From: an uncultured Bacillota bacterium
GTDB taxonomy: Bacteria; Bacillota_I; Bacilli_A; RF39; UBA660
DNA length: 64,000 bases
Reading direction: 5' to 3'
Assembly (NCBI GenBank): GCA_945867665.1
Contig: CAMBIR010000005.1
Coordinates: 8,659-72,658, forward strand
Positions 6,341-46,087 of this stretch are shown in pieces. The notes beneath the pieces are model-generated. The model was not told the DNA's origin. It was given only the letters and a program-made list of their open reading frames with translations, and ran no database searches. The first letter of the stretch is position 1. Each line of letters starts with the position of its first letter. The position numbers and the translations under genes were made by a program.

Positions 6341-8680
6341 TTATTGATTAATATTACTTTTTCCCATAATACTATTTTTAATTTGAACATAATCTACCGC
6401 CGTAACCTGTCCATCTTTATTGACATCAGCAGCCTTTAAATAACTATCTGTTAGATTACTTCGATTCATAATATAATTTTTGACATTAACATAATCCACT
6501 GCAGTAATTTGACCATCGCCATTGATATCTCCAAAAATTACCACATCATAAGTTTTTGTACCATTGGTACCAGAAATTGTTACTTTATCCCCGGTTTTAA
6601 ACACATCATTTGTCTTAAGCATTCCATTCTTTGATTTTACTGTTACACCTACTTTATGATTATAACTCGTAATATTTCCAATTATATTAGACACATTTGT
6701 TCCTACATTAATTCCAAAGATATTTTTATCATTATATTTAAATCCTGAATGATTCATTGCATCTTCAATAGTAGTAGATGGAGAATCGTCTTTTTCTCTA
6801 ATAAAATTAATGGTATAAGTTCTTGTTTTTCCATTTTGTGAAGTTACATTAATTTGTTGTGTCTGATTATCAGACTTAATTTGAATGGTATCTGCTCCGC
6901 TTACTTTGGCATTTGCATTAATGGTATTTGCCCCAATTTTAACAGAAGTTGTATTACTACTTAAATAAACATTATAATTATAAGTATTATAACTAAAATT
7001 ATTAATGGTATTATTATTAATCGTTAAATTTTTTAAATAATTGTTTGGATTTCCTAATCTAGGGGCTGTTACGGTATAATTTGGCATATTATTATATACA
7101 GGAATAACAAATTTAATGGCTGTATTTAAATAACTATTCATACTATTAACATAACCATTATATTTAATTCCTCCTTCTTGAATTGGAGCGGCTAGATTTT
7201 GCATATATTGGTGGGTAAAATTTCCATTTTTTGTTGAAGATACATCAAATTTTTCATAGTAAATGGTATCTTGATTTATAGAAATATATCCATTATACAT
7301 AAATGATGCTCCACCATAAATTCCTTTATATGGAGTATTCCATCCTTGTTCATAAGCATATCCAGAATAAATAGAACTGCAATTTGTACATCTTGATTTT
7401 ATATTAAAGAAATTATAATAACCTGAATAGCTTTTCCCACTATACCGGAAATTTCCACCTATTCTAGAATCGGTTGAAGATATTCCAGATATCTCTTGCT
7501 TAATACGACTAGCTACATGAACAGCACTAATTCCAATTTTTGAAGATGATGTTACAATATCATCATTAACATTTCCTGTACTATCTTTAATAGCACCACT
7601 TCTATTATAATACTGATAAATACTTGGCCAAAAACCTTGAGCGGATAAAATAGAAGAAATAACCCTTGAATTTTGGTTAGAACTATATCCTAATGTTTCG
7701 AAGGCAAAAATATACTTTTCATTCAAATAATTTCTTGGGTCAAGATAGTAAGCAATAGCTTCTTTTGAGGCATTATAATATCCAGGTTCACTCTCATATT
7801 CCTTAAAATTATCTGCTAAAATATTATAAGTATTGGTATCTAAAGATAAATATCCATCATCAAATGGAGCTTTTCTTTGAAGCAGACTTGCCCCATTACC
7901 ACTTTCTCCTGTTACAACATCATCAAAATTAAGGTTAATTTTCTCCGCCTCAAAAGTCCAATTAGAATGTCTTGCATGTAATTCTAATAAATATGGAATA
8001 TAACTATCTGGAAAACCTGCAGTTTTTAACTTTTGGGTATAACTTTCAATAGTATCTCCATTTTTTTTCTGATTGTAATAATTTTGTGCAGTTGATGTTA
8101 ATTTTGTTGTATTTACGAAATATCCACATAAATAACCAGTGTTAGAACCTGCAGTTATTTTATACCAATATGGACATGTGGTATTAGGCTTGTCCACAGT
8201 TTCTAAAACATCTACATCTTCCCCACAATTAACTTTAGCACCTGTTCTACTCCCATTAGCACTACTTCTTAAACCAACGGAACCTGTATCTTCATAACAC
8301 ATGATTGTTCCATCTTTTTTTGTTGGATTATCATAATTTTTTTTAGCGTAACTATCATCTACTCCAGAAGTAGTTTGATTCTCTTCTTTTAATTTTATGA
8401 AATCACCACAAGAATAACCTGTATAGTTTCCATAACTTACTTTATACCAATTACCACCACATCCGTTACCTGTTCCAGAATTGGTATTTAAAATTGTTAA
8501 TTCTGTAGCATTATAAAATCTTGTAATCACACTACTTGATGTTGTTGGTTGACTTCTTAAAGTTAAAGAATCATTGACATTTACGATACCTGTTAGGGCA
8601 TATACACGAGGAGTAAGGCTACATACGATTCCAAGAGCAACACATTTTAAAATTAGATTTTTTCTTGAATTTTCTTGCAT
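6341..8680 (-). CDS. Secreted peptidoglycan hydrolase (N-acetylglucosaminidase-like) with two SH3b-like repeats, a cadherin-like domain and a C-terminal type I dockerin
   Basis: Signal peptide present. Two NWYKV.../YWYKI...GY.CGYF SH3b-like repeats. A DPRNYL...GYAYEQGW region resembles the glucosaminidase (LytD-like) domain. The C-terminus carries duplicated Ca-binding loops DINGDGQITAVD and DVNKDGQVTAVD, typical of dockerin. Confidence 0.6.
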   Translation of the reverse strand: MQENSRKNLILKCVALGIVCSLTPRVYALTGIVNVNDSLTLRSQPTTSSSVITRFYNATELTILNTNSGTGNGCGGNWYKVSYGNYTGYSCGDFIKLKEENQTTSGVDDSYAKKNYDNPTKKDGTIMCYEDTGSVGLRSSANGSRTGAKVNCGEDVDVLETVDKPNTTCPYWYKITAGSNTGYLCGYFVNTTKLTSTAQNYYNQKKNGDTIESYTQKLKTAGFPDSYIPYLLELHARHSNWTFEAEKINLNFDDVVTGESGNGASLLQRKAPFDDGYLSLDTNTYNILADNFKEYESEPGYYNASKEAIAYYLDPRNYLNEKYIFAFETLGYSSNQNSRVISSILSAQGFWPSIYQYYNRSGAIKDSTGNVNDDIVTSSSKIGISAVHVASRIKQEISGISSTDSRIGGNFRYSGKSYSGYYNFFNIKSRCTNCSSIYSGYAYEQGWNTPYKGIYGGASFMYNGYISINQDTIYYEKFDVSSTKNGNFTHQYMQNLAAPIQEGGIKYNGYVNSMNSYLNTAIKFVIPVYNNMPNYTVTAPRLGNPNNYLKNLTINNNTINNFSYNTYNYNVYLSSNTTSVKIGANTINANAKVSGADTIQIKSDNQTQQINVTSQNGKTRTYTINFIREKDDSPSTTIEDAMNHSGFKYNDKNIFGINVGTNVSNIIGNITSYNHKVGVTVKSKNGMLKTNDVFKTGDKVTISGTNGTKTYDVVIFGDINGDGQITAVDYVNVKNYIMNRSNLTDSYLKAADVNKDGQVTAVDYVQIKNSIMGKSNINQ

Positions 8681-25599: not shown

Positions 25600-27939
25600 T
25601 TAAATTCCTTTCCATTGCCAATTTTGAACTTCTGGCATATCTTTTCCATATTCATAAATATATTGCTTATGAATGACTAATTTATCTTTACATAATTGAT
25701 TCAACAAGGCACTTCGATTTCCTAATTGAGGCAATCTTTTTAAGGCGGCTAAAACAAGATGATACCTATCAATTTCATTTTGAACACACATATCAAATCT
25801 AGTTGTAATTGTTCCTTCTTCCTTGTATCCATGAACGTGTAAATCTTTGTTATGTCTTCGATAAGTTAACTGATGAATTAAATTTGGGTATCCGTGGAAA
25901 GCAAAAATAATTGGTTTATCTTTGGTGAATAATGAATCATAGTCTTCGTCAGTTAATCCATGTGGATGTTCAGTGTTAGATTGTAGTCTCATTAAATCAA
26001 CAACGTTAATTACTCTGATTTTTAATTCTGGGAAAAATTCTCTTAAAATAGAGGTAGCAGCTAAGGTTTCTAGAGTTGGCGTATCTCCACAACAAGCCAT
26101 AATGATATCTGGTTCTTGATTTTGGTCATTGCTTGCCCATTTCCAAATACCAATTCCTTGTGTACAGTGAATAACTGCCTCTTCCATACTTAGCCATTGT
26201 GGTCTTGGATGTTTCGAAGCAATAATGACATTAATATAGTCTTTGCTTTTCATACAATGTTCAAAACAAGATAATAGACAGTTAGTATCTGGTGGCAGAT
26301 AAATTCTTACAATATCTGCTTTTTTTGTTACTAAATGATTTAAGAATCCTGGATCTTGATGTGTATACCCATTATGATCTTGTTGCCATACATGTGACGT
26401 CAAAATGTAATTTAATGACGATATTTTTTGACGCCATGGCAATTGTTTGCATACTTTTAGCCATTTGGCATGTTGGCTTGCCATGGAATCAACAATTCTA
26501 ATGAAGGCTTCATAGCTTGTAAAGAAACCGTGACGTCCTGTTAATAAATAACCTTCTAGCATTCCTTGGCAAACATGTTCGGATAAAATGGAGTCAATCA
26601 CTACACCATTACTATCCAAAAATTCATCAGTTTCTTTTTTGATGGCATTCCATTTTCGATTGGTTTGTTCAAAAACATAGTTTAAGCGATTGGATAATGT
26701 TTCATCTGGGGCAAATATTCTAAAATTATGTTTGTCTTGATTTAATTTGATAACATCTTTTACATATTTTCCAAGTTCAATCATGTCTTGTGCTTGAATA
26801 TTTCCATGTTCTGTTATTTTTACCCCATATTCTCTAAAATCTGGTAGATTTAATTCTTTTAATAATTTTCCTCCATTCGCATTAGGATTGGCTCCCATTC
26901 TTTGATTGCCAACTGGGACTAACTCTTGCAAATCTTTGATTAGCGTTCCATTTTTATCAAATAATTCTTCTGGTTTATAACTTCTTAGCCATTCTTCTAA
27001 TATTTGTAAATTTTCTTTATGATTTTCATCGACAACGATAGGTACTTGATGAGCGCGAAATGAACCTTCTATTTGTTTTCCATCGACTTCTTTTGGCCCA
27101 GTCCAACCCTTTGGTGTTCTTAAAATAATCATTGGCCAAATTGGTCTTTTGGTTGTTTTTCGATATTTAATATCTTTTATTTTTTCAATTACTTCATCTA
27201 AAACTTCAGCCATTCTTCGGTGCATTGTCATTGGATTATCTCCTTCAACATAATAAGGAAGATAGCCACTGCCTCTGAAATAGTCGTCTAATTCCATATC
27301 GCTAATTCTAGAAAATATTGTTGGATTGGCAATTTTATATCCATTTAAATGGAGAATTGGTAATACTACTCCATCTGTTTTAGGATTCATTATTTTATTA
27401 ATTTGTAGTGAGGCTTGAAGGGGACCTGTTTCTAATTCACCATCTCCTATTACGCAAGCCGCTATTAGCGTTGGATTGTCTAGTACTGCTCCATAGGCGT
27501 GTGACAAACTATACCCTAATTCACCACCTTCATTAATTGAACCTGGTGTTTCAGGAGCAGCGTGGGAAGATACTCCACCTGGAAAAGAGAATTGCTTAAA
27601 TAGTTTTTTTAATCCCTCTTCATCTTGAGTAATACTAGGATATATCTCTGTGTAGCTTCCTTCTAGATAAGTATTTGAAATCATTGCCTGTCCACCATGC
27701 CCAGGGCCAGAGATGTATATCATGTTTAAGTCATATTTTTTAATCACTCTATTTAAGTGGGTATAAATAAAATTTTGTCCTGGCGCTGTCCCCCAATGAC
27801 CAACCACGTTTGGCTTGATATCTCTTAGAGTAAGTTTTCTTTTTAATAAGGGATTATCTAATAAATATAATTGACATGCTGATAAATAATTGGCAGCTCT
27901 AAAATAGGCATCTATTTTTTTTAATTCTTTTGTTTCCAT
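25600..27939 (-). CDS. xfp: Phosphoketolase (xylulose-5-phosphate/fructose-6-phosphate phosphoketolase)
   Basis: 779 aa. N-terminus [17 protein letters not shown]...[19 protein letters not shown] and ThDP-binding motifs (GPGHGG, EGGELGY) are diagnostic. Confidence 0.9.
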
Positions 27940-28006: not shown

Positions 28007-28705
28007 TTACTGATTAATACTTCCTAATTTTTTATCCAAATCATCTATAATAGTTTGAAGTCTATCATAATTTATTTTTAAATTTTCTTTTTCTTTCTCG
28101 ATTTTGCTTTCTTCATTCATTTTATAATCAAAGAATTTTTGCTTTTCTTGGGATAATTTTTCTTTGTCTTTTTCTAATTTATCACTAGACTTATCAATTG
28201 TTATTCTTATTTCCTTTAATTCATCTATATAACTATTTATTTCTGTTACTCTTGATTGTAGGGCATCAAATAATTTATCAAAATCAGATAATTGTTTATC
28301 TATATTTGTCGTTTTATTCGTAATAGGAGATAATTTTTCATTATTAATTAGGCGATATTCTGTCCAAAATTGTTTTAGTGAGGATACTTTTGGTTTTACA
28401 ACTATTCCTTTTTCTTGATAATTATTAAAATAAAGTACATTATCAATTTCATTATCAATTGGAGTAATGTCTTTAATATTTTCATACATTTTATCTATTC
28501 TGTTACGATATTCTTTATGTTTAGAAAAATTAGTTAATTTAGCAGAATTATCTTTTAAGTAGTTTTCTTTCGTTTCACTTGTTTTTTCTTCTGAAATTAA
28601 TTTCTTTTTTTGAGCAATGTTTTTACTTTTTATTTCTCCTAAATTGGAAAATAAGTTTTCTGGTAATTCAATATTTCTTACTCTACTACTATACATAATT
28701 TTCAC
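28007..28705 (-). CDS. Hypothetical coiled-coil protein
   Basis: 232 aa, Lys/Glu/Asn-rich heptad-like sequence. Overlaps the upstream DUF1292 gene by 17 nt. Confidence 0.45.
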   Translation of the reverse strand: MKIMYSSRVRNIELPENLFSNLGEIKSKNIAQKKKLISEEKTSETKENYLKDNSAKLTNFSKHKEYRNRIDKMYENIKDITPIDNEIDNVLYFNNYQEKGIVVKPKVSSLKQFWTEYRLINNEKLSPITNKTTNIDKQLSDFDKLFDALQSRVTEINSYIDELKEIRITIDKSSDKLEKDKEKLSQEKQKFFDYKMNEESKIEKEKENLKINYDRLQTIIDDLDKKLGSINQ

Positions 28706-28973: not shown

Positions 28974-29143
28974 TTTATTCTCCTCCTATTTTAAACACAT
29001 TATATCATAGTTTTCTTTTAATCACAAGTAAATTTTAAGGAAAACTTGAAAGTTCGATTTGAGATTGTAAACGTAATGATTAGTTATATTATAGTTAATT
29101 TTTATACTTTTTGTTTGAAAGTATTGCAGATGAATTGATTTTT

Positions 29144-29172
29144 TTTTTACTTTTACTTCTTTTTTGTATAAT
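29144..29172 (+). promoter_or_regulatory. Putative agrB promoter (extended -10 TGTATAAT, weak -35)
   Basis: TGTATAAT at 29165-29172, 18 nt upstream of the agrB RBS. A T-rich -35 region is consistent with an activator-dependent promoter. Confidence 0.35.
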
Positions 29173-29190
29173 GGAATTGTAGGTGATAAT

Positions 29191-29811
29191 ATGAAGAAAA
29201 AATTCATTCAAACCTCTATAAATATCCTTAAAAATAGTGGAAAATATAGTAGTGATGATATTGAAATTATTATATATGGTCTTGAAGGAATTTATCTTAC
29301 TATAACTAAAATGATTATCATTTTCTTAATATCATTCATATTAGGAATAACAAAAGAAGTATTTCTTCTTCTCATTACCTATAATATTATCAGATCCCAA
29401 GCTTTTGGAATACATGCAAGTAAAAGTATTTATTGTTTAGTTTCTTCTCTTACTTTCTTTGTAGGTGGCGCTATGATATGTAAATATATAATGTTACCTT
29501 TATGGTTAATGATAGTAATTGCTATTTTATGTGATATATGTTTGTTGCTTTATGCTCCAGCTGATACCCATAAGCATCCTATTATTAATTTAAAAAAGAG
29601 AAAAAAATTTAAGTTCTTAAGTTTTACTTTTGGTCTGATATATACCTTTTTAATTATTTATTATTATGGGCAGGATATTACAAATTATTTACTATTTGGA
29701 ATGTTAGAGGCAGTATTAATGATTTTACCTGTTACTTATAGTACCTTTAAAATGCCTTATGATAATTATAAAACTTATTATAATGATGTTGAATTAATTA
29801 GCAATAATTAA
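29191..29811 (+). CDS. agrB: Accessory gene regulator protein B (AgrB-family membrane endopeptidase that processes the AgrD propeptide)
   Basis: Multi-TM protein. Segments YGLEGIYLTITKMIIIFLISFILGITKE and IIRSQAFGIHASKSIYCLVSS align to the conserved AgrB core with catalytic His/Cys. ATG at 29191 is preferred over the ORF-track TTG at 29164. RBS AGGTGA at 29181-29186, extended -10 TGTATAAT at 29165-29172. Confidence 0.8.
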   Translation: MKKKFIQTSINILKNSGKYSSDDIEIIIYGLEGIYLTITKMIIIFLISFILGITKEVFLLLITYNIIRSQAFGIHASKSIYCLVSSLTFFVGGAMICKYIMLPLWLMIVIAILCDICLLLYAPADTHKHPIINLKKRKKFKFLSFTFGLIYTFLIIYYYGQDITNYLLFGMLEAVLMILPVTYSTFKMPYDNYKTYYNDVELISNN

Positions 29812-29850
29812 TTTTACATAAAAAAGAATAAAAAGAAGGAGGAAAAAAAT

Positions 29851-29973
29851 TATGAGTTTTATTGCAGACTTATTAGCAAGAATTGGAGGTAGTGCCGCTA
29901 GCACTGGTACTAAGGCATGTGCTGTTTGGTTTTTGGATGAACCAAAAATGCCTAAAAAGTTAATTGAGAAATA
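29851..29973 (+). CDS. agrD: AgrD-like autoinducing peptide precursor (40 aa), missed by the ORF track
   Basis: Strong RBS AAGGAGG, then a 9-nt spacer, then ATG. Product MSFIADLLARIGGSAASTGTKACAVWFLDEPKMPKKLIEK has an N-terminal amphipathic helix, a single Cys core (CAVWF(L)) and a charged tail DEPKMPKKL resembling the conserved AgrD C-terminal DE.VPKEL recognition motif. Lies immediately downstream of agrB. Confidence 0.6.
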
Positions 29974-29985
29974 GATAAAAATAAA

Positions 29986-30015
29986 TAAAACACTCGTTCT
30001 TGAGTGCTTTATTTT
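29986..30015. terminator. Bidirectional terminator between agrD (+) and agrC (-)
   Basis: AAAACACTC-gttctt-GAGTGCTTT followed by ATTTTTG. A-run on the left gives a T-run on the minus strand. Confidence 0.55.
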
Positions 30016-31322
30016 TGACGATTTTTTACAATGATAGTTTGACTATAAATATTGTTTTTTATTTCTCTTTTGGTATCAAAGATATTGTTTTTTTGAACCA
30101 ATTGATTAACTAATAGAAGTCCATGTCCACGATTTTTTCCTTTTGTTGTAAAGTTTTCTTTTCCAATTTTTTCTTCATCAATTTCGTTATTGTAAGTATT
30201 TGAAATAATCATTCTAAATTCATTATCCAAATTAGAGTATGCTTCAATTCCAAGTTCTTTATCTTTAGATTCAGCACTTGCTTCTATAGCATTATCAATA
30301 AATACGCCTAAAATTTTAGCAAAATCTCTTTGTTCTTTTGTGTTTAAGTTATATATTGTTGAACTTTGAATTTTTTTAGAAATATTAATTGAGACACTAA
30401 TTCCTTGTTCTTCAGCTTTTTGTGTTTTAAAATAACACAAACCTTTTACTCCATTAGCAGGTAAATAACCAAATTTAGCGTATTTTTCATTTTTTACCGA
30501 ATAGGTATCTCCAAGAATTTCGTCAATATAGTCAATTATTGTTTTTTCCTTTTCTTTATCACATATTTTGGAACGAATTGCTAAAAACTCATTTTTTGTT
30601 TCATGACGTAGAGTTCTTTGATTTTCTATTTCTTCTTCATAAGTTTTCATAAATTCAAGTAATTTATCATAGTCATCTGTTATTTTATTATTAATCATGG
30701 TTTGTTTTATTAAACTGAATAACACAATAAATAAAACTATAATAGCAAATAAATATAAAAATACATTATTATTAAAACTTAACTCTTTTATCAATGTATA
30801 AAATAATAAACCTGTACATATAAAAATCAAAATAGAAAAGATAATTATTTTTTTATTATCCTCCACTTCATTTTCTAAAATTTTTTTTATTTTATCTCTT
30901 AATAAAAAGATAGAAAAAGAAAAAAAAGATAATACTATAATATTTGAAAATATTGTATTTGCATATACGTTATAACAATATTCTTTGTTAACATTTAAAA
31001 TATAAATTATAAATAATAATTGGAGCAAATCTACAATCATTAAAATAACAATATATAAAAATGACAAAAAAATAGATTTTTTTGTATTTATTTTAAATTG
31101 TACTTTATAATATAAAATATCAATAGCAAACATTAGACTTGTTTTCATAACTGATGTAAAATTAATTTTTACTATTGTTTGTGGTATAGCAAATAATAAT
31201 ATTAAAAATGCATCTTTCAAAATACTTGAATTATTCTTCTTCTCTAACACAATTTTTCCAAATAAATAAACACCAATCATAACAATAATAAGTATGATAT
31301 ATTCATTAATAATTTTCCACAT
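30009..31322 (-). CDS. agrC: AgrC-like sensor histidine kinase (polytopic sensor domain plus HATPase_c_5/GHKL)
   Basis: N-terminal 6-7 TM helices, His-containing dimerisation region (RHETKNEFLAIRS) and C-terminal GHGLLLVNQLV ATP-lid motif typical of LytTR-coupled kinases. Overlaps the agrA-like gene by 17 nt. Confidence 0.75.
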   Translation of the reverse strand: MWKIINEYIILIIVMIGVYLFGKIVLEKKNNSSILKDAFLILLFAIPQTIVKINFTSVMKTSLMFAIDILYYKVQFKINTKKSIFLSFLYIVILMIVDLLQLLFIIYILNVNKEYCYNVYANTIFSNIIVLSFFSFSIFLLRDKIKKILENEVEDNKKIIIFSILIFICTGLLFYTLIKELSFNNNVFLYLFAIIVLFIVLFSLIKQTMINNKITDDYDKLLEFMKTYEEEIENQRTLRHETKNEFLAIRSKICDKEKEKTIIDYIDEILGDTYSVKNEKYAKFGYLPANGVKGLCYFKTQKAEEQGISVSINISKKIQSSTIYNLNTKEQRDFAKILGVFIDNAIEASAESKDKELGIEAYSNLDNEFRMIISNTYNNEIDEEKIGKENFTTKGKNRGHGLLLVNQLVQKNNIFDTKREIKNNIYSQTIIVKNRQK

Positions 31323-32028
31323 ATGTTTTCAACTCCTTCTTTTTTCTATTTGAAAGTAAATAGACTGTTTTGTTATTCAAGAATGTAATGGTGTTTTCTG
31401 AATAATTTATTCTTTTAATTTTCTCTACATTTACGATACATGATTTGTGGCATTGAAAGAAACTTCTTCCTAATCTTTCTGATAATTCTTGGATTGAGAG
31501 ATTGGTTTCAAATTTTTCTCCACTTTCAGTTACGATTACACATTTTGATACTTCTTGTAATTTTTCGATATATAAAATATTATCAAATGGAATTCTATAA
31601 GAATTACGATTGAAGTTATAAATCAGTACTTTTTTCTTATTGATTGTCTTTATGATGTAACGAATTGTTTCTTCTAATCTATCCGGCCATATTTTATCTT
31701 TTGGAATGAAATCAATTGCTAATAATCTAGAGTAGAATATGTCATTTTTACATTCGCCGTGATTTGTTACAAATAAAATGACACTATCTAAATCTTCTTC
31801 TCTTATTTCAGATGCAATTTCTAAGCCTGATACTTCACCAAGTTCAATATCCAGGATATAGACTTTTTCTTCTCCTTCTTTCTTGATTAGTTCATGAACT
31901 TCCTTATTATATTCAGTAAATTCATTAATTTTATACTCGAAGTTATAAGGCATCATGACTTTTGTTAAAATATTATGAATTCTTGTTAAGAACTCTTTAT
32001 TGTCTTCGCATATAATAAATCTTACCAT
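31306..32028 (-). CDS. agrA: LytTR-family response regulator (AgrA-like)
   Basis: REC domain (ICEDN...LDIELGEVSGLE) followed by LytTR DNA-binding domain (YRIPFDNILYIEKLQEV...FFQCHKSCIVNVEKIKRI). 240 aa. Confidence 0.85.
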   Translation of the reverse strand: MVRFIICEDNKEFLTRIHNILTKVMMPYNFEYKINEFTEYNKEVHELIKKEGEEKVYILDIELGEVSGLEIASEIREEDLDSVILFVTNHGECKNDIFYSRLLAIDFIPKDKIWPDRLEETIRYIIKTINKKKVLIYNFNRNSYRIPFDNILYIEKLQEVSKCVIVTESGEKFETNLSIQELSERLGRSFFQCHKSCIVNVEKIKRINYSENTITFLNNKTVYLLSNRKKKELKTYVENY

Positions 32029-32191
32029 AATTTTACTCCTTCCCAGCGAATAGGTTCATTATATCATTAAATCGACAAAATATTTGTTTTTGCGTGGTAA
32101 AATGCAAATTTCAAGCCCTAAAAGACAACATATTATATAATTTGTTACTTTTATAAAAAAACTTTAAATATCTTTTTAGATAAATAAAGTT

Positions 32192-33553
32192 TTATTTTAT
32201 TTTTTTGCACAATAATTCTGTTGCGGTTTGAAGTTGTTTATCTTGTTCTGAGGTTACCTCATATTCAATGGCGTTAGTTGGGGTTACTCCTTTTTCGTTA
32301 ATCCAATTTCCATTTGGAGTGAGCCATTTTTGGATTGTATATTTAATCATACTTCCATCTGATAATTTTTTTGTTTTTTGAACAGTTCCTTTTCCATAGG
32401 TTTGTGTTCCTACTACTAATCCACCGTAGCTTTCTTTGATAGCAGAGGCTAAGATTTCAGAAGCGGAAGCGCTAGCTGCATTGACTAGTACGGCTACTGG
32501 ATAACTTCTACTTTCTTTGGTTTTATCTTTGACCACTTCTTTCTTTTTATCATCTTGTAATTGATAAATTGTTTTTCCTTTTTTTAAGAAGAGACTACTA
32601 ATATCTGTTACTGCAGTTAAATATCCTCCTGAGTCATTTCTAACGTCTATTATCAAAGCTTGGATTCCTTTTTTTTCTAATTTTTCTAGTTGATTTTTAA
32701 ACTGTTCGTAGGTAACTCCTGAAAATACTGTGATGTCTATATACCCAACCTTTTTCCCATCTTGTTCAATAATTTTGCTTTCTACACTTGGAACTTCTAC
32801 TTTTTTTCTATTAATCGTTATTTCTTTTTCTTTTTCTTCTCTTTTAATCGTTAATTTTACTGTTTTATTCTTGCTATTTTTAACATAGTTAGACATATCT
32901 TCACTAGTTTTTCCTTTATAATCTTTACCGTCTATTTTTAAAATGATATCTTTTTCTTTCATACCAGCTTTTTTAGCGGGACCATTTTCAAACACACTAA
33001 CAACAATAATATTTCCTTCTTGATCCATAGATACCATACAACCGATTCCTTCATAAGTTCCATCGACAGTTTCCAAAAAACTATTTGTTTCCTTTTGAGT
33101 GGTATAAGTTGTATAGTTATCTTTTGTTTGAGATAACATGGAGTCGATTGCTTTATCAATCATTTTATTTTTATCTAAATCACCGTAATAATTGGAAGTA
33201 ACGGTATCATAAACATTAATTAGTTTTTGTAAATCATAATATAATTTAATGAAATTTTTTCCACCACTTAAGAAAAATAATACAAGTAGGCAGATTAAAA
33301 ATCCTAGTAGTTCGTAGCCAAGGCTTGAGAATATTTTATTTTTTAGTGTCATATTTTCATTATTAGATACTTTTCGTAAAAATATTTTATTTATTATTTT
33401 TCCTGGAGTTGATTGATTAAATTTTTGTCTTTTTTCTTCTTTTAATTTTTTCTTTTCTTCTTTAATTTTTTGTTTTTCTTTTTTGATAATTTCTTTTGAT
33501 TTTTTTATTTTATCATTTATATTTTTTTGGAATATTCTCATTTTCATCACCAT
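32192..33553 (-). CDS. ctpA: Carboxyl-terminal processing (tail-specific) protease, S41 family, with PDZ domain
   Basis: N-terminal TM anchor, PDZ domain, S41 catalytic region with GGYLTAV and ASASEILASAIK motifs and the GKGTVQ signature. Confidence 0.85.
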   Translation of the reverse strand: MVMKMRIFQKNINDKIKKSKEIIKKEKQKIKEEKKKLKEEKRQKFNQSTPGKIINKIFLRKVSNNENMTLKNKIFSSLGYELLGFLICLLVLFFLSGGKNFIKLYYDLQKLINVYDTVTSNYYGDLDKNKMIDKAIDSMLSQTKDNYTTYTTQKETNSFLETVDGTYEGIGCMVSMDQEGNIIVVSVFENGPAKKAGMKEKDIILKIDGKDYKGKTSEDMSNYVKNSKNKTVKLTIKREEKEKEITINRKKVEVPSVESKIIEQDGKKVGYIDITVFSGVTYEQFKNQLEKLEKKGIQALIIDVRNDSGGYLTAVTDISSLFLKKGKTIYQLQDDKKKEVVKDKTKESRSYPVAVLVNAASASASEILASAIKESYGGLVVGTQTYGKGTVQKTKKLSDGSMIKYTIQKWLTPNGNWINEKGVTPTNAIEYEVTSEQDKQLQTATELLCKKIK

Positions 33554-45810: not shown

Positions 45811-46012
45811 CTATCTCCTTTTTTAGAAACATTTTTTATCATTTTACTATAGGAAAATGTTGTATGACATAGAAAAAAATATACAATTTTGTCTATTTTC
45901 TGTAAACGATTATTTTTTTACCATTGGTTAATATTGGCTTTTTTCATAAAAAGTTAGAAAAGTAGTTGAAAATTTATCTTTTTTATGATAAATTATAGTT
46001 ATCTTGTTTTTA

Positions 46013-46087
46013 GGAGTGTAGTTCAGTTGGTAGAACGTCGGTCTCCAAAACCGAATGTCGTGAGTTCAAGTCTTGCCACTCCTGCCA
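46013..46087 (+). tRNA. trnW: tRNA-Trp (anticodon CCA)
   Basis: Cloverleaf with 7-bp acceptor stem AGGAGTG/CACTCCT, D arm containing GTTCAGTTGGTAGAAC, anticodon stem TCGGT/ACCGA with loop CTCCAAA, T arm with GTTCAAGTC, discriminator G plus encoded CCA. Followed by terminator hairpin GAATTCCCAAATGGGAATT and a T-run. Upstream TTGAAA-17-TAAATT promoter-like element at 45966-45994. Confidence 0.85.

What the first reader, a model, noticed from the sequence alone, without database searches (positions are those of the whole stretch)
29144..32028. Split agr-type quorum-sensing locus with an unannotated 40-aa AgrD precursor
agrB (29191-29811) is followed, after a strong AAGGAGG RBS, by a 40-codon ORF (29851-29973) that the ORF track misses: MSFIADLLARIGGSAASTGTKACAVWFLDEPKMPKKLIEK. 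It has the three hallmarks of AgrD propeptides: an N-terminal amphipathic helix, a single-Cys core, and a charged C-terminal DEP..PKKL recognition tail. The cognate AgrC-like kinase and LytTR regulator (30009-32028) are on the opposite strand. They converge on a shared bidirectional terminator, so they are not in the single agrBDCA operon of staphylococci. The predicted mature signal would be a thiolactone around CAVWF(L), a sequence I do not recognise from characterised AIPs.
Basis: partly seen in the sequence, partly recalled or inferred. Interest (0 to 1): 0.7.

Follow-up and report, generated by a model that had tools for sequence, protein, structure and literature searches.

The report
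Ordinary agr quorum-sensing locus, convergent layout
This is a genuine but ordinary agr-type peptide quorum-sensing locus in an uncultured human-gut Bacilli bacterium: its split layout and probable six-residue cyclic signal are already-known agr variations, and the most interesting feature is that strains of the same species carry different signal/receptor alleles.

Summary
AgrB matches Pfam AgrB (117 bits). The peptide passes NCBIfam AgrD TIGR04223 (28.6 vs 19) and is kept, with its RBS, in every orthologous locus down to 41% AgrB identity.

The novelty claim is weak. The peptide is already a called gene on 31 public contigs. Separate agrBD and agrCA operons, six-residue macrocycles and tail-free rearranging AIPs are described for clostridia. 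Annotated agr loci also show other strand orientations.

From Cys to EPKMPxxL the peptide aligns without gaps with C. acetobutylicum AgrD, whose AIP is a detected six-membered tail-free ring. I therefore predict CAVWFL (cyclic [M+H]+ 720.354), not CAVWF.

One addition: strains with ~95-99% identical flanks carry different rings (CAVWFL, CYLWFI, CLFLIM) and AgrC sensor halves only 38-45% identical. This resembles staphylococcal agr specificity groups, but here the two variable segments are not adjacent.

Verdict: new member of a known kind, low-to-moderate interest.

The parts
29067..29099 (+). Candidate AgrA (LytTR) recognition region upstream of agrB. It contains the conserved blocks GTAAACG (29067-29073) and AGTTAAT (29093-29099), with a TAGTTAT between them (29081-29087).
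   Evidence: Both blocks are invariant in six orthologous promoters whose surrounding sequence varies. The combined pattern occurs once in the 64 kb window, against 0.02 expected. Function is inferred. The spacing is not the canonical 9+12+9 of S. aureus P2.
29167..29172 (+). -10 hexamer TATAAT of the agrBD promoter
   Evidence: Conserved as TATAAT or TATACT in the alignment; coordinates.
29191..29811 (+). agrB: 206-aa membrane peptidase/cyclase, with RBS TAGGTGA at 29180-29186
   Evidence: Pfam PF04647 at 117.4 bits against a cut-off of 23. His75 and Cys82 have the same spacing as the S. aureus His77/Cys84 dyad, and five hydrophobic segments are predicted.
29836..29842 (+). AAGGAGG ribosome-binding site of agrD
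   Evidence: An AGGAGG-type RBS is present in the orthologous loci.
29852..29974 (+). agrD: 40-aa AIP precursor MSFIADLLARIGGSAASTGTKACAVWFLDEPKMPKKLIEK. The predicted ring Cys23-Leu28 is encoded at 29918-29935.
   Evidence: NCBIfam TIGR04223 at 28.6 bits against a cut-off of 19. Conserved in 12 alleles with a variable ring and an invariant DEPKMPxxLIEK tail. Ungapped alignment with six-ring clostridial AgrDs.
29983..30014 (.). Shared bidirectional intrinsic terminator between agrD and agrC
   Evidence: Called on both strands. Free energy -10.4 and -14.5 kcal/mol, z-scores -4.3 and -6.2. An A-run/hairpin/T-run is present at the same place in L011-L016, although the stem sequences differ.
30009..30707 (-). 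agrC, cytoplasmic histidine-kinase half (residues 206-437)
   Evidence: HATPase_c_5 at 6.7e-10. H-box RHETKN at residue 239, N-box IDNAIE at 342, G-box at 397. It is 93-94% identical between alleles of the species.
30708..31322 (-). agrC, N-terminal six-TM sensor half (residues 1-205); the hypervariable segment
   Evidence: Six predicted TM helices. Only 38-45% aa and 54-62% nt identity to L011 and L017, whose flanks are 95-100% identical.
31306..32028 (-). agrA: receiver + LytTR response regulator. It overlaps agrC by 17 nt.
   Evidence: Response_reg at 2.9e-11 and LytTR at 2.9e-19. The best NCBIfam hit is AgrA. Asp60 lies in ILDI.
32036..32066 (-). agrCA promoter-proximal elements: extended -10 TGATATAAT (32058-32066) and RBS GGAAGGAG (32036-32043)
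   Evidence: Conserved in the window, L011, L018 and L020; coordinates.

Best explanation
This is a complete, functional agr-type cyclic-peptide quorum-sensing module in the chromosome of an uncultured, low-GC (28.5%) human-gut Bacilli bacterium. It is organised as two convergent transcription units, agrBD and agrAC, that end at one bidirectional terminator.

Inferred mechanism:
- AgrD inserts into the membrane through its N-terminal amphipathic helix.
- AgrB, using its His75/Cys82 dyad, recognises the DEPKMPKKLIEK tail and cleaves after Leu28.
- AgrB then transfers the acyl group to Cys23, giving a six-residue thiolactone ring, CAVWFL.
- An unidentified peptidase removes the leader, probably at the conserved small residue directly before the Cys (A|C). 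That would leave a tail-free peptide, which would rearrange by an S-to-N acyl shift to cyclo(CAVWFL).
- The peptide binds the six-TM sensor of AgrC. AgrC phosphorylates AgrA, and AgrA activates the agrBD promoter (autoinduction) and unknown targets.
- agrCA has its own strong extended -10 promoter.

Shown here: gene identities, signature residues, conservation of the layout, ring register, and allelic co-variation of the AgrD ring and the AgrC sensor. Inferred: the chemistry of the product, N-terminal processing, AgrA binding sites and the regulon.
For: - Family hits for all four proteins.
- Catalytic and signature residues present.
- The agrBD> <agrCA arrangement, the small ORF with its RBS, and the terminator are conserved from 100% down to 41% AgrB identity, in MAGs labelled Bacilli or Tenericutes.
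- Ten same-allele contigs are 97-100% identical with all genes intact.
- Ungapped alignment from Cys to EPxxPxxL with C. acetobutylicum AgrD (CVLVTL|YEPKMPEELL). That species' AIP was detected as a six-membered tail-free macrocycle (PMC8251862).
- The AgrD ring and the AgrC sensor half change together between strains, while the AgrC kinase half, AgrA and the flanks stay 93-100% identical. This supports a cognate ligand-receptor pair.
- Conserved promoter blocks upstream of agrB, unique in the window, and a conserved extended -10 upstream of agrA.
Against: - No expression or chemical data exist. The organism is uncultured and known only from metagenomes.
- The staphylococcal Pfam AgrD model is below its cut-off (15.8 vs 22.7).
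- The staphylococcal AgrC and AgrA equivalog models are far below theirs (63 vs 500 and 73 vs 400), so the proteins are family-level relatives only.
- The conserved promoter blocks do not have the canonical 9-bp repeat with 12-bp spacer geometry, so autoinduction is not demonstrated.
- The ring size rests on alignment register, not on a cleavage assay.
Confidence: 0.8

Rival explanations
1. The signal is a five-residue thiolactone, CAVWF, as in staphylococci, Listeria and C. perfringens. AgrB would cleave after Phe27, and Leu28 would belong to the discarded tail.
For: Five-membered rings are by far the commonest (PMC10301443). Position 28 is always aliphatic or aromatic (L/I/M/V/W/A), so it could be part of the AgrB recognition site.
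Against: All 11 alleles of this lineage have exactly Cys+5 residues before [D/E]EP. They align without gaps with the clostridial group, where the Cys+5 ring was confirmed by mass spectrometry for C. acetobutylicum. Position 28 also varies between alleles, as the ring positions do, whereas the tail is invariant.
Confidence: 0.2
2. The neighbouring kinase and regulator are not the receptor for this peptide. Adjacency would be coincidental, and the AgrBD product would signal through another system, as in C. perfringens (VirSR) or C. difficile agr1.
For: The two units are separately transcribed. Orphan agrBD pairs are common in clostridia (PMC12312760). In L018 and L022, transposases separate agrD from agrCA or follow agrD directly.
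Against: Adjacency is kept across relatives down to 41% AgrB identity. The AgrC sensor half diverges in step with the AgrD ring inside one allelic block. The best NCBIfam hits are AgrC and AgrA.
Confidence: 0.05
3. The peptide acts mainly as an interference or antimicrobial molecule against other strains and species, rather than as an autoinducer.
For: Gut-derived AIPs have been reported to inhibit biofilms and shift communities ex vivo (PMC11953309). Allelic diversification is also what interference competition would produce.
Against: A dedicated, co-varying sensor kinase next to the gene argues for self-sensing. In staphylococci, interference and autoinduction coexist (PMC10482373), so this is an addition rather than an alternative.
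Confidence: 0.05
4. The 40-codon ORF is a chance ORF in AT-rich DNA.
For: Short ORFs are frequent. The Pfam AgrD hit is sub-threshold.
Against: TIGR04223 is above its cut-off. A strong RBS sits at the correct spacing. The ORF is present in all orthologous loci, with a tail that stays invariant while third positions and ring residues change.
Confidence: 0.01

Closest known systems
Clostridium acetobutylicum-type agr system (agrBD + agrCA as separate operons; six-membered tail-free AIP CVLVTL)
   Same: Two transcription units. AgrD has Cys+5 residues followed by [Y/D]EPKMPxxL, in identical register. No RNAIII. AgrC with HATPase_c_5 and a LytTR AgrA.
   Different: In the clostridia the two operons are described as part of agrBD-agrCA-CA_C0082 clusters, followed by a LanM-like effector gene (PMC10301443). 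Here the operons converge on one terminator and no LanM-like gene is present: the neighbours are phosphoketolase, DUF1292, an S41 peptidase and SSB. AgrD is much shorter (40 vs 54 aa). The host is an uncultured Bacilli/'Tenericutes'-labelled gut lineage, not Clostridia. AgrB identity to clostridial plasmid AgrBs is only ~35%.
Staphylococcus aureus agrBDCA with specificity groups I-IV
   Same: The same four components. AgrB His/Cys dyad. AgrD built as amphipathic helix, Cys core and acidic tail (DEPKMPKKL here vs DEVEVPKEL, the latter recalled from my own knowledge). Intraspecific allelic variation that affects AgrB, the AgrD ring and the AgrC sensor while AgrA is conserved (PMC10482373).
   Different: Not a single operon. 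No RNAIII (no Rfam hit). A six- rather than five-residue ring. Because the units converge, the variable agrD core and the variable agrC sensor segment are separated by ~770 bp of conserved kinase-domain sequence, instead of forming one contiguous hypervariable block. The staphylococcal equivalog models are not met.
Ruminiclostridium cellulolyticum Rc-AIP1 (cyclo-CWFWSY) and other clostridial cAIPs
   Same: Six-residue, aromatic-rich core starting at Cys. A small residue directly before the Cys is compatible with a tail-free product that undergoes an S-to-N acyl shift (PMC8251862).
   Different: The product here is only predicted, and the leader-removing protease is unknown.

Membership tests
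agr-type (AgrB/AgrD/AgrC/AgrA) cyclic-peptide quorum sensing | AgrB-family integral membrane peptidase | tested here: met
   PF04647 at 117.4 bits vs a cut-off of 23, covering residues 10-178.
agr-type (AgrB/AgrD/AgrC/AgrA) cyclic-peptide quorum sensing | AgrB catalytic His/Cys dyad (His77/Cys84 in S. aureus; PMC10482373) | tested here: met
   His75 and Cys82 in HASKSIYC, with the same 7-residue spacing. The same H..C motif (HATKS.[YD]C) is visible in the AgrB sequences of distant loci L012, L014 and L016.
agr-type (AgrB/AgrD/AgrC/AgrA) cyclic-peptide quorum sensing | AgrD-family precursor directly adjacent to agrB (general AgrD model) | tested here: met
   TIGR04223 at 28.6 bits vs a cut-off of 19, E 1.2e-6. 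The gene starts 40 nt after the agrB stop.
agr-type (AgrB/AgrD/AgrC/AgrA) cyclic-peptide quorum sensing | AgrD tripartite architecture: N-terminal amphipathic helix, Cys/Ser core, charged C-terminal tail with a conserved E-P..P motif | tested here: met
   Hydrophobic moment of 1.38 for residues 1-14. Invariant Cys23, E30 and P31, and near-invariant K32, P34 and L37, in 15 aligned AgrDs.
agr-type (AgrB/AgrD/AgrC/AgrA) cyclic-peptide quorum sensing | Polytopic AgrC-type histidine kinase (HATPase_c_5 / HPK10-like) plus LytTR response regulator | tested here: met
   HATPase_c_5 at 6.7e-10, LytTR at 2.9e-19, Response_reg at 2.9e-11. Six TM helices and H-, N- and G-boxes.
agr-type (AgrB/AgrD/AgrC/AgrA) cyclic-peptide quorum sensing | Secreted cyclic (thio)lactone or lactam peptide that activates the kinase | not testable with these tools
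   Needs LC-MS and a reporter assay.
agr-type (AgrB/AgrD/AgrC/AgrA) cyclic-peptide quorum sensing | Autoinduction through AgrA-binding direct repeats in the agrBD promoter | tested here: inconclusive
   Conserved GTAAACG and AGTTAAT blocks 26 bp apart, unique in the window. This is not the canonical 9-12-9 geometry, and there is no binding data.
Staphylococcal agr (agrBDCA operon + RNAIII) | Single agrBDCA operon from P2, with a divergent P3/RNAIII | tested here: not met
   agrBD (+) and agrAC (-) converge on a terminator. No RNAIII or other Rfam match near the locus. The divergent neighbour is a DUF1292 protein gene.
Staphylococcal agr (agrBDCA operon + RNAIII) | Staphylococcal AgrD, AgrC and AgrA equivalog models | tested here: not met
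   PF05931 at 15.8 vs 22.7. NF046015 at 62.9 vs 500 and NF046049 at 72.6 vs 400.
Staphylococcal agr (agrBDCA operon + RNAIII) | Intraspecific hypervariable alleles with co-varying AgrD ring and AgrC sensor | tested here: met
   Window CAVWFL, L011 CYLWFI, L017 CLFLIM. AgrC sensor 38-45% aa identity against kinase half 93-94%, AgrA 94% and XFP 100%.
Clostridial six-membered-ring agr subgroup (C. acetobutylicum type) | Cys + 5 residues before the [Y/D]EPxxP tail | tested here: met
   Ungapped alignment A2 with sequences from PMC10301443.
Clostridial six-membered-ring agr subgroup (C. acetobutylicum type) | Separate agrBD and agrCA transcription units | tested here: met
   The opposite strands make this obligatory. 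The agrA side has its own extended -10.
Clostridial six-membered-ring agr subgroup (C. acetobutylicum type) | LanM-like CA_C0082 effector gene downstream of agrCA | tested here: not met
   The neighbours are XFP, a coiled-coil protein, DUF1292, an S41 peptidase and SSB. No LanM-like gene adjoins the locus.

The most novel reading that the evidence does not exclude
An uncultured human-gut Bacilli commensal maintains several mutually exclusive agr pherotypes. Within one species (flanks ~95-99% nt identical) there are at least three ring and AgrC-sensor allele pairs: CAVWFL, CYLWFI and CLFLIM. Close relatives carry CLILIM, CLFWFM and CLVLIV. The alleles would be exchanged as a mosaic block by recombination, with a left breakpoint at ~28,100-28,200. 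This would imply strain-level signal interference in the gut. It would also show that ligand-receptor co-variation can persist even though the convergent layout places the two variable segments ~770 bp apart rather than next to each other.
Probability: 0.45. Interest if true: 0.45.

Novelty: new member of a known kind. Interest (0 to 1): 0.25.

Why it matters
As a locus it adds little. Agr systems with separate operons, six-residue rings and tail-free cyclopeptides are established, and gut-microbiome AIPs are already being mined at scale.

Its modest value lies in three things:
1. It provides a concrete, synthesisable signal prediction (cyclo/thiolactone CAVWFL, [M+H]+ 720.354) for an uncultured gut lineage. 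Such a peptide might even aid cultivation or strain tracking.
2. It documents staphylococcus-like pherotype polymorphism in a gut commensal, which bears on strain competition in the microbiome.
3. It offers a natural case where the co-evolving ligand and receptor segments are not contiguous.

Tried and rejected
- I checked whether the two 779-aa ORFs (6341-8680 and 25600-27939) and their ~436-439-aa neighbours are a segmental duplication. They are unrelated proteins.
- I looked for an RNAIII-like or any other structured RNA with Rfam. The only hit is a tRNA at 46012-46084.
- I tested whether the divergently transcribed DUF1292 and coiled-coil genes are a conserved partner of the locus, analogous to P3. 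They are absent upstream of agrB in the distant loci L012, L014 and L016, so they are not part of the module.
- I searched phage records for AgrB relatives and found none. Plasmid hits are only ~35% identical clostridial and enterococcal AgrBs. The constant chromosomal synteny argues against a mobile element.
- I searched the full-text library for CAVWFL, DEPKMPK and FIADLLA and found no paper. The supplements of the gut RiPP survey are not held, so I could not check whether this AgrD family is among its catalogued families.
- I found no paper that explicitly describes a convergent agrBD/agrCA arrangement. An annotated Clostridium plasmid does show agrA on the opposite strand from agrD-agrB-agrC, so orientation changes are not unusual.
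- I could not refine the taxonomy beyond the record titles ('uncultured Bacilli', 'Tenericutes', 'Erysipelotrichaceae bacterium'). I ran no further search on it.
Full report
**1. Observation**

| Feature | Coordinates | Strand |
|---|---|---|
| agrB (206 aa from the ATG) | 29191-29811 | + |
| AAGGAGG RBS | 29836-29842 | + |
| 40-codon ORF, ATG 29852 to TAG 29972-29974 | 29852-29974 | + |
| 437-aa membrane histidine kinase | 30009-31322 | - |
| 240-aa response regulator, overlapping the kinase gene by 17 nt | 31306-32028 | - |

Between the agrD stop and the agrC stop lies a hairpin flanked by an A-run and a T-run (29983-30014). It is called as an intrinsic terminator on both strands. It folds at -10.4 kcal/mol on the + strand and -14.5 kcal/mol on the - strand, with z-scores of -4.3 and -6.2 against shuffles.

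**2. Identity of the parts**

- AgrB matches Pfam PF04647 at 117 bits against a cut-off of 23. It carries His75 and Cys82 with the spacing of the S. aureus His77/Cys84 catalytic dyad (dyad from PMC10482373).
- The 40-aa peptide passes the general NCBIfam AgrD model TIGR04223 (28.6 vs 19). It falls below the staphylococcus-centred Pfam model (15.8 vs 22.7).
- The kinase has six predicted TM helices, an RHETKN H-box, N- and G-boxes and a HATPase_c_5 domain. The regulator is receiver + LytTR.
- The best NCBIfam hits for the kinase and regulator are AgrC and AgrA, but far below the staphylococcal equivalog cut-offs. They are family-level relatives, not orthologues of the staphylococcal proteins.

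**3. 'Unannotated'**

The exact 40-aa sequence is already a called gene in NCBI, ENA and Logan assemblies on 31 contigs. NCBI's pipeline routinely labels such genes 'cyclic lactone autoinducer peptide'.

**4. Host and context**

The window has 28.5% GC. Identical or near-identical loci sit on human-gut metagenome contigs, including Hadza and other cohorts, always in the same chromosomal order: PGA_cap - phosphoketolase - coiled-coil protein - DUF1292 - agrBD> <agrCA - S41 peptidase - SSB - SufB. Species-representative genomes that carry relatives are titled 'uncultured Bacilli bacterium', 'Bacilli bacterium' (roe deer) and 'uncultured Tenericutes bacterium'. One 66%-identical AgrB is labelled Erysipelotrichaceae. 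There are no phage hits and only ~35% identical plasmid hits. The locus is therefore a vertically inherited chromosomal feature of an uncultured gut lineage.

**5. Conservation of the arrangement**

In six species-level relatives with AgrB identity of 85, 55, 52, 51, 41 and 42%, agrB is followed on the same strand by a 39-42-codon ORF with an AGGAGG-type RBS. agrC and agrA lie on the opposite strand, converging on an A-run/hairpin/T-run whose stem sequence differs from locus to locus. The upstream neighbours are not conserved in the distant loci. The conserved module is therefore the four agr genes plus the terminator.

**6. Ring size**

All 11 lineage alleles have Cys + 5 residues and then [D/E]EP:

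- CAVWFL
- CYLWFI
- CLFLIM
- CLILIM
- CLFWFM
- CLVLIV
- CLFWFI
- CWLWFI
- CWLLFV
- CILVWW
- CMFWFA

From the Cys through EPxxPxxL they align without a gap with C. acetobutylicum AgrD (…GKCVLVTLYEPKMPEELL…) and other clostridial AgrDs predicted to give six-membered rings (PMC10301443). The C. acetobutylicum AIP was detected by HRMS as a six-membered macrocycle without an N-terminal extension. R. cellulolyticum makes cyclo-CWFWSY. Such tail-free thiolactones rearrange within minutes to homodetic cyclopeptides (PMC8251862).

I therefore favour CAVWFL over CAVWF. The calculated cyclic [M+H]+ values are 720.3538 and 607.2697 respectively. The residue before the Cys is always Ala or Gly, which is compatible with a tail-free product. 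This last step is inference.

**7. Regulation**

Upstream of agrB, six orthologous promoters share a -10 (TATAAT, 29167-29172), the RBS, and two blocks: GTAAACG (29067-29073) and AGTTAAT (29093-29099). From my own knowledge, the second block resembles the S. aureus AgrA box ACAGTTAAG. The combined pattern is unique in the 64 kb window, with 0.02 expected by chance. The geometry is not the canonical 9-12-9, so AgrA binding and autoinduction remain inferred. The agrA side has a conserved extended -10 (TGATATAAT, 32058-32066) and a strong RBS. This fits an independent, probably constitutive, agrCA promoter. No RNAIII or other Rfam family is present.

**8. Allelic variation (the most interesting addition)**

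Ten contigs that carry the identical AgrD are 97-100% identical to the window across the whole region.

L017 is different. It is ~99% nt identical through the phosphoketolase gene. Identity then drops abruptly at about 28,100-28,200, inside the coiled-coil gene, to 73-93% through DUF1292, agrB, agrD and the agrC kinase half. It falls to ~61% in the agrC sensor half.

Protein identities to the window:

| Locus | Ring | AgrB | AgrC kinase half | AgrC sensor half | Other proteins |
|---|---|---|---|---|---|
| L017 | CLFLIM | 87% | 93% | 38% | XFP 100% |
| L011 | CYLWFI | 85% | 94% | 45% (54-61% nt) | AgrA 94%, S41 95%, SSB 98% |

For L011 the downstream flanks are ~95% nt identical. This is the pattern of staphylococcal agr specificity groups (PMC10482373). 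There is one structural difference. Because the units converge, the variable agrD core (29918-29935) and the variable agrC sensor segment (30708-31322) are separated by the conserved kinase-domain coding sequence instead of forming one contiguous hypervariable block. Whether the alleles cross-inhibit is untested.

**9. Comparison with what is known, and novelty**

A 2025 primer lists the following as recognised agr variations: separate agrBD and agrCA operons, missing agrCA, six-residue macrocycles, and tail-free rearranging AIPs (PMC12312760). Gut-microbiome AIPs have been mined and synthesised at scale (PMC11953309). An annotated Clostridium plasmid has agrA on the opposite strand from agrD-agrB-agrC.

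I found no paper that describes exactly the convergent agrBD> <agrCA layout or this peptide. Even so, it is a minor permutation of a known design. The LanM-like effector gene that accompanies the clostridial six-ring systems is absent here.

**Verdict**

This is a new member of a known kind. Interest is 0.25. The pherotype reading would raise it to about 0.45 if it were demonstrated.

Noticed in passing
L018:5038-6194; L022:4847-6247: In two related strains, transposase genes sit at the convergence point. In L018 an ISL3-family gene lies between agrD and agrC. In L022 a DDE_Tnp_1/DUF772 gene lies directly after agrD, just before the contig end, so agrCA is not seen there. The terminator region may be an insertion hotspot, or these may be agr-defective variants.
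   Followed up: partly
window 28100-28200 (inside ORF 28007-28705): There is a sharp mosaic breakpoint. L017 is ~99% identical to the window to the left of this point and 73-93% identical to the right. The coiled-coil and DUF1292 genes therefore belong to the divergent allelic block together with agr. This could be hitch-hiking or a functional link.
   Followed up: partly
window, whole (ORF list): Nearly all long ORFs lie on the - strand. agrBD is one of very few + strand units, so it is transcribed against the local gene-orientation bias. The convergent layout could reflect an inversion of agrBD.
   Followed up: no
L012-L014, ~30-60 nt upstream of the agrA -10: In the more distant species the agrA promoter carries a palindrome, ATGTAAC-N6/7-GTTACAT, that is absent from the window's species. 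It looks like an operator for a dimeric regulator.
   Followed up: no
window 32192-33553 (-); L002:8341-9692; L004:8362-9333: An S41 (CtpA/CtpB-like) peptidase gene lies immediately upstream of agrA, also in L012 and L014 at ~50% identity. It is split or truncated in some metagenome contigs. I did not examine whether it could be the unknown leader-removing protease or whether this is mere synteny.
   Followed up: no
window 6341-8680 and 25600-27939: Two ORFs of exactly 779 aa, each next to a ~436-439-aa ORF, looked like a duplication. They are unrelated in sequence.
   Followed up: yes
window 46012-46084 (+): A single tRNA gene is the only Rfam match in the window. It lies on the + strand in a region where almost all genes are on the - strand.
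   Followed up: no
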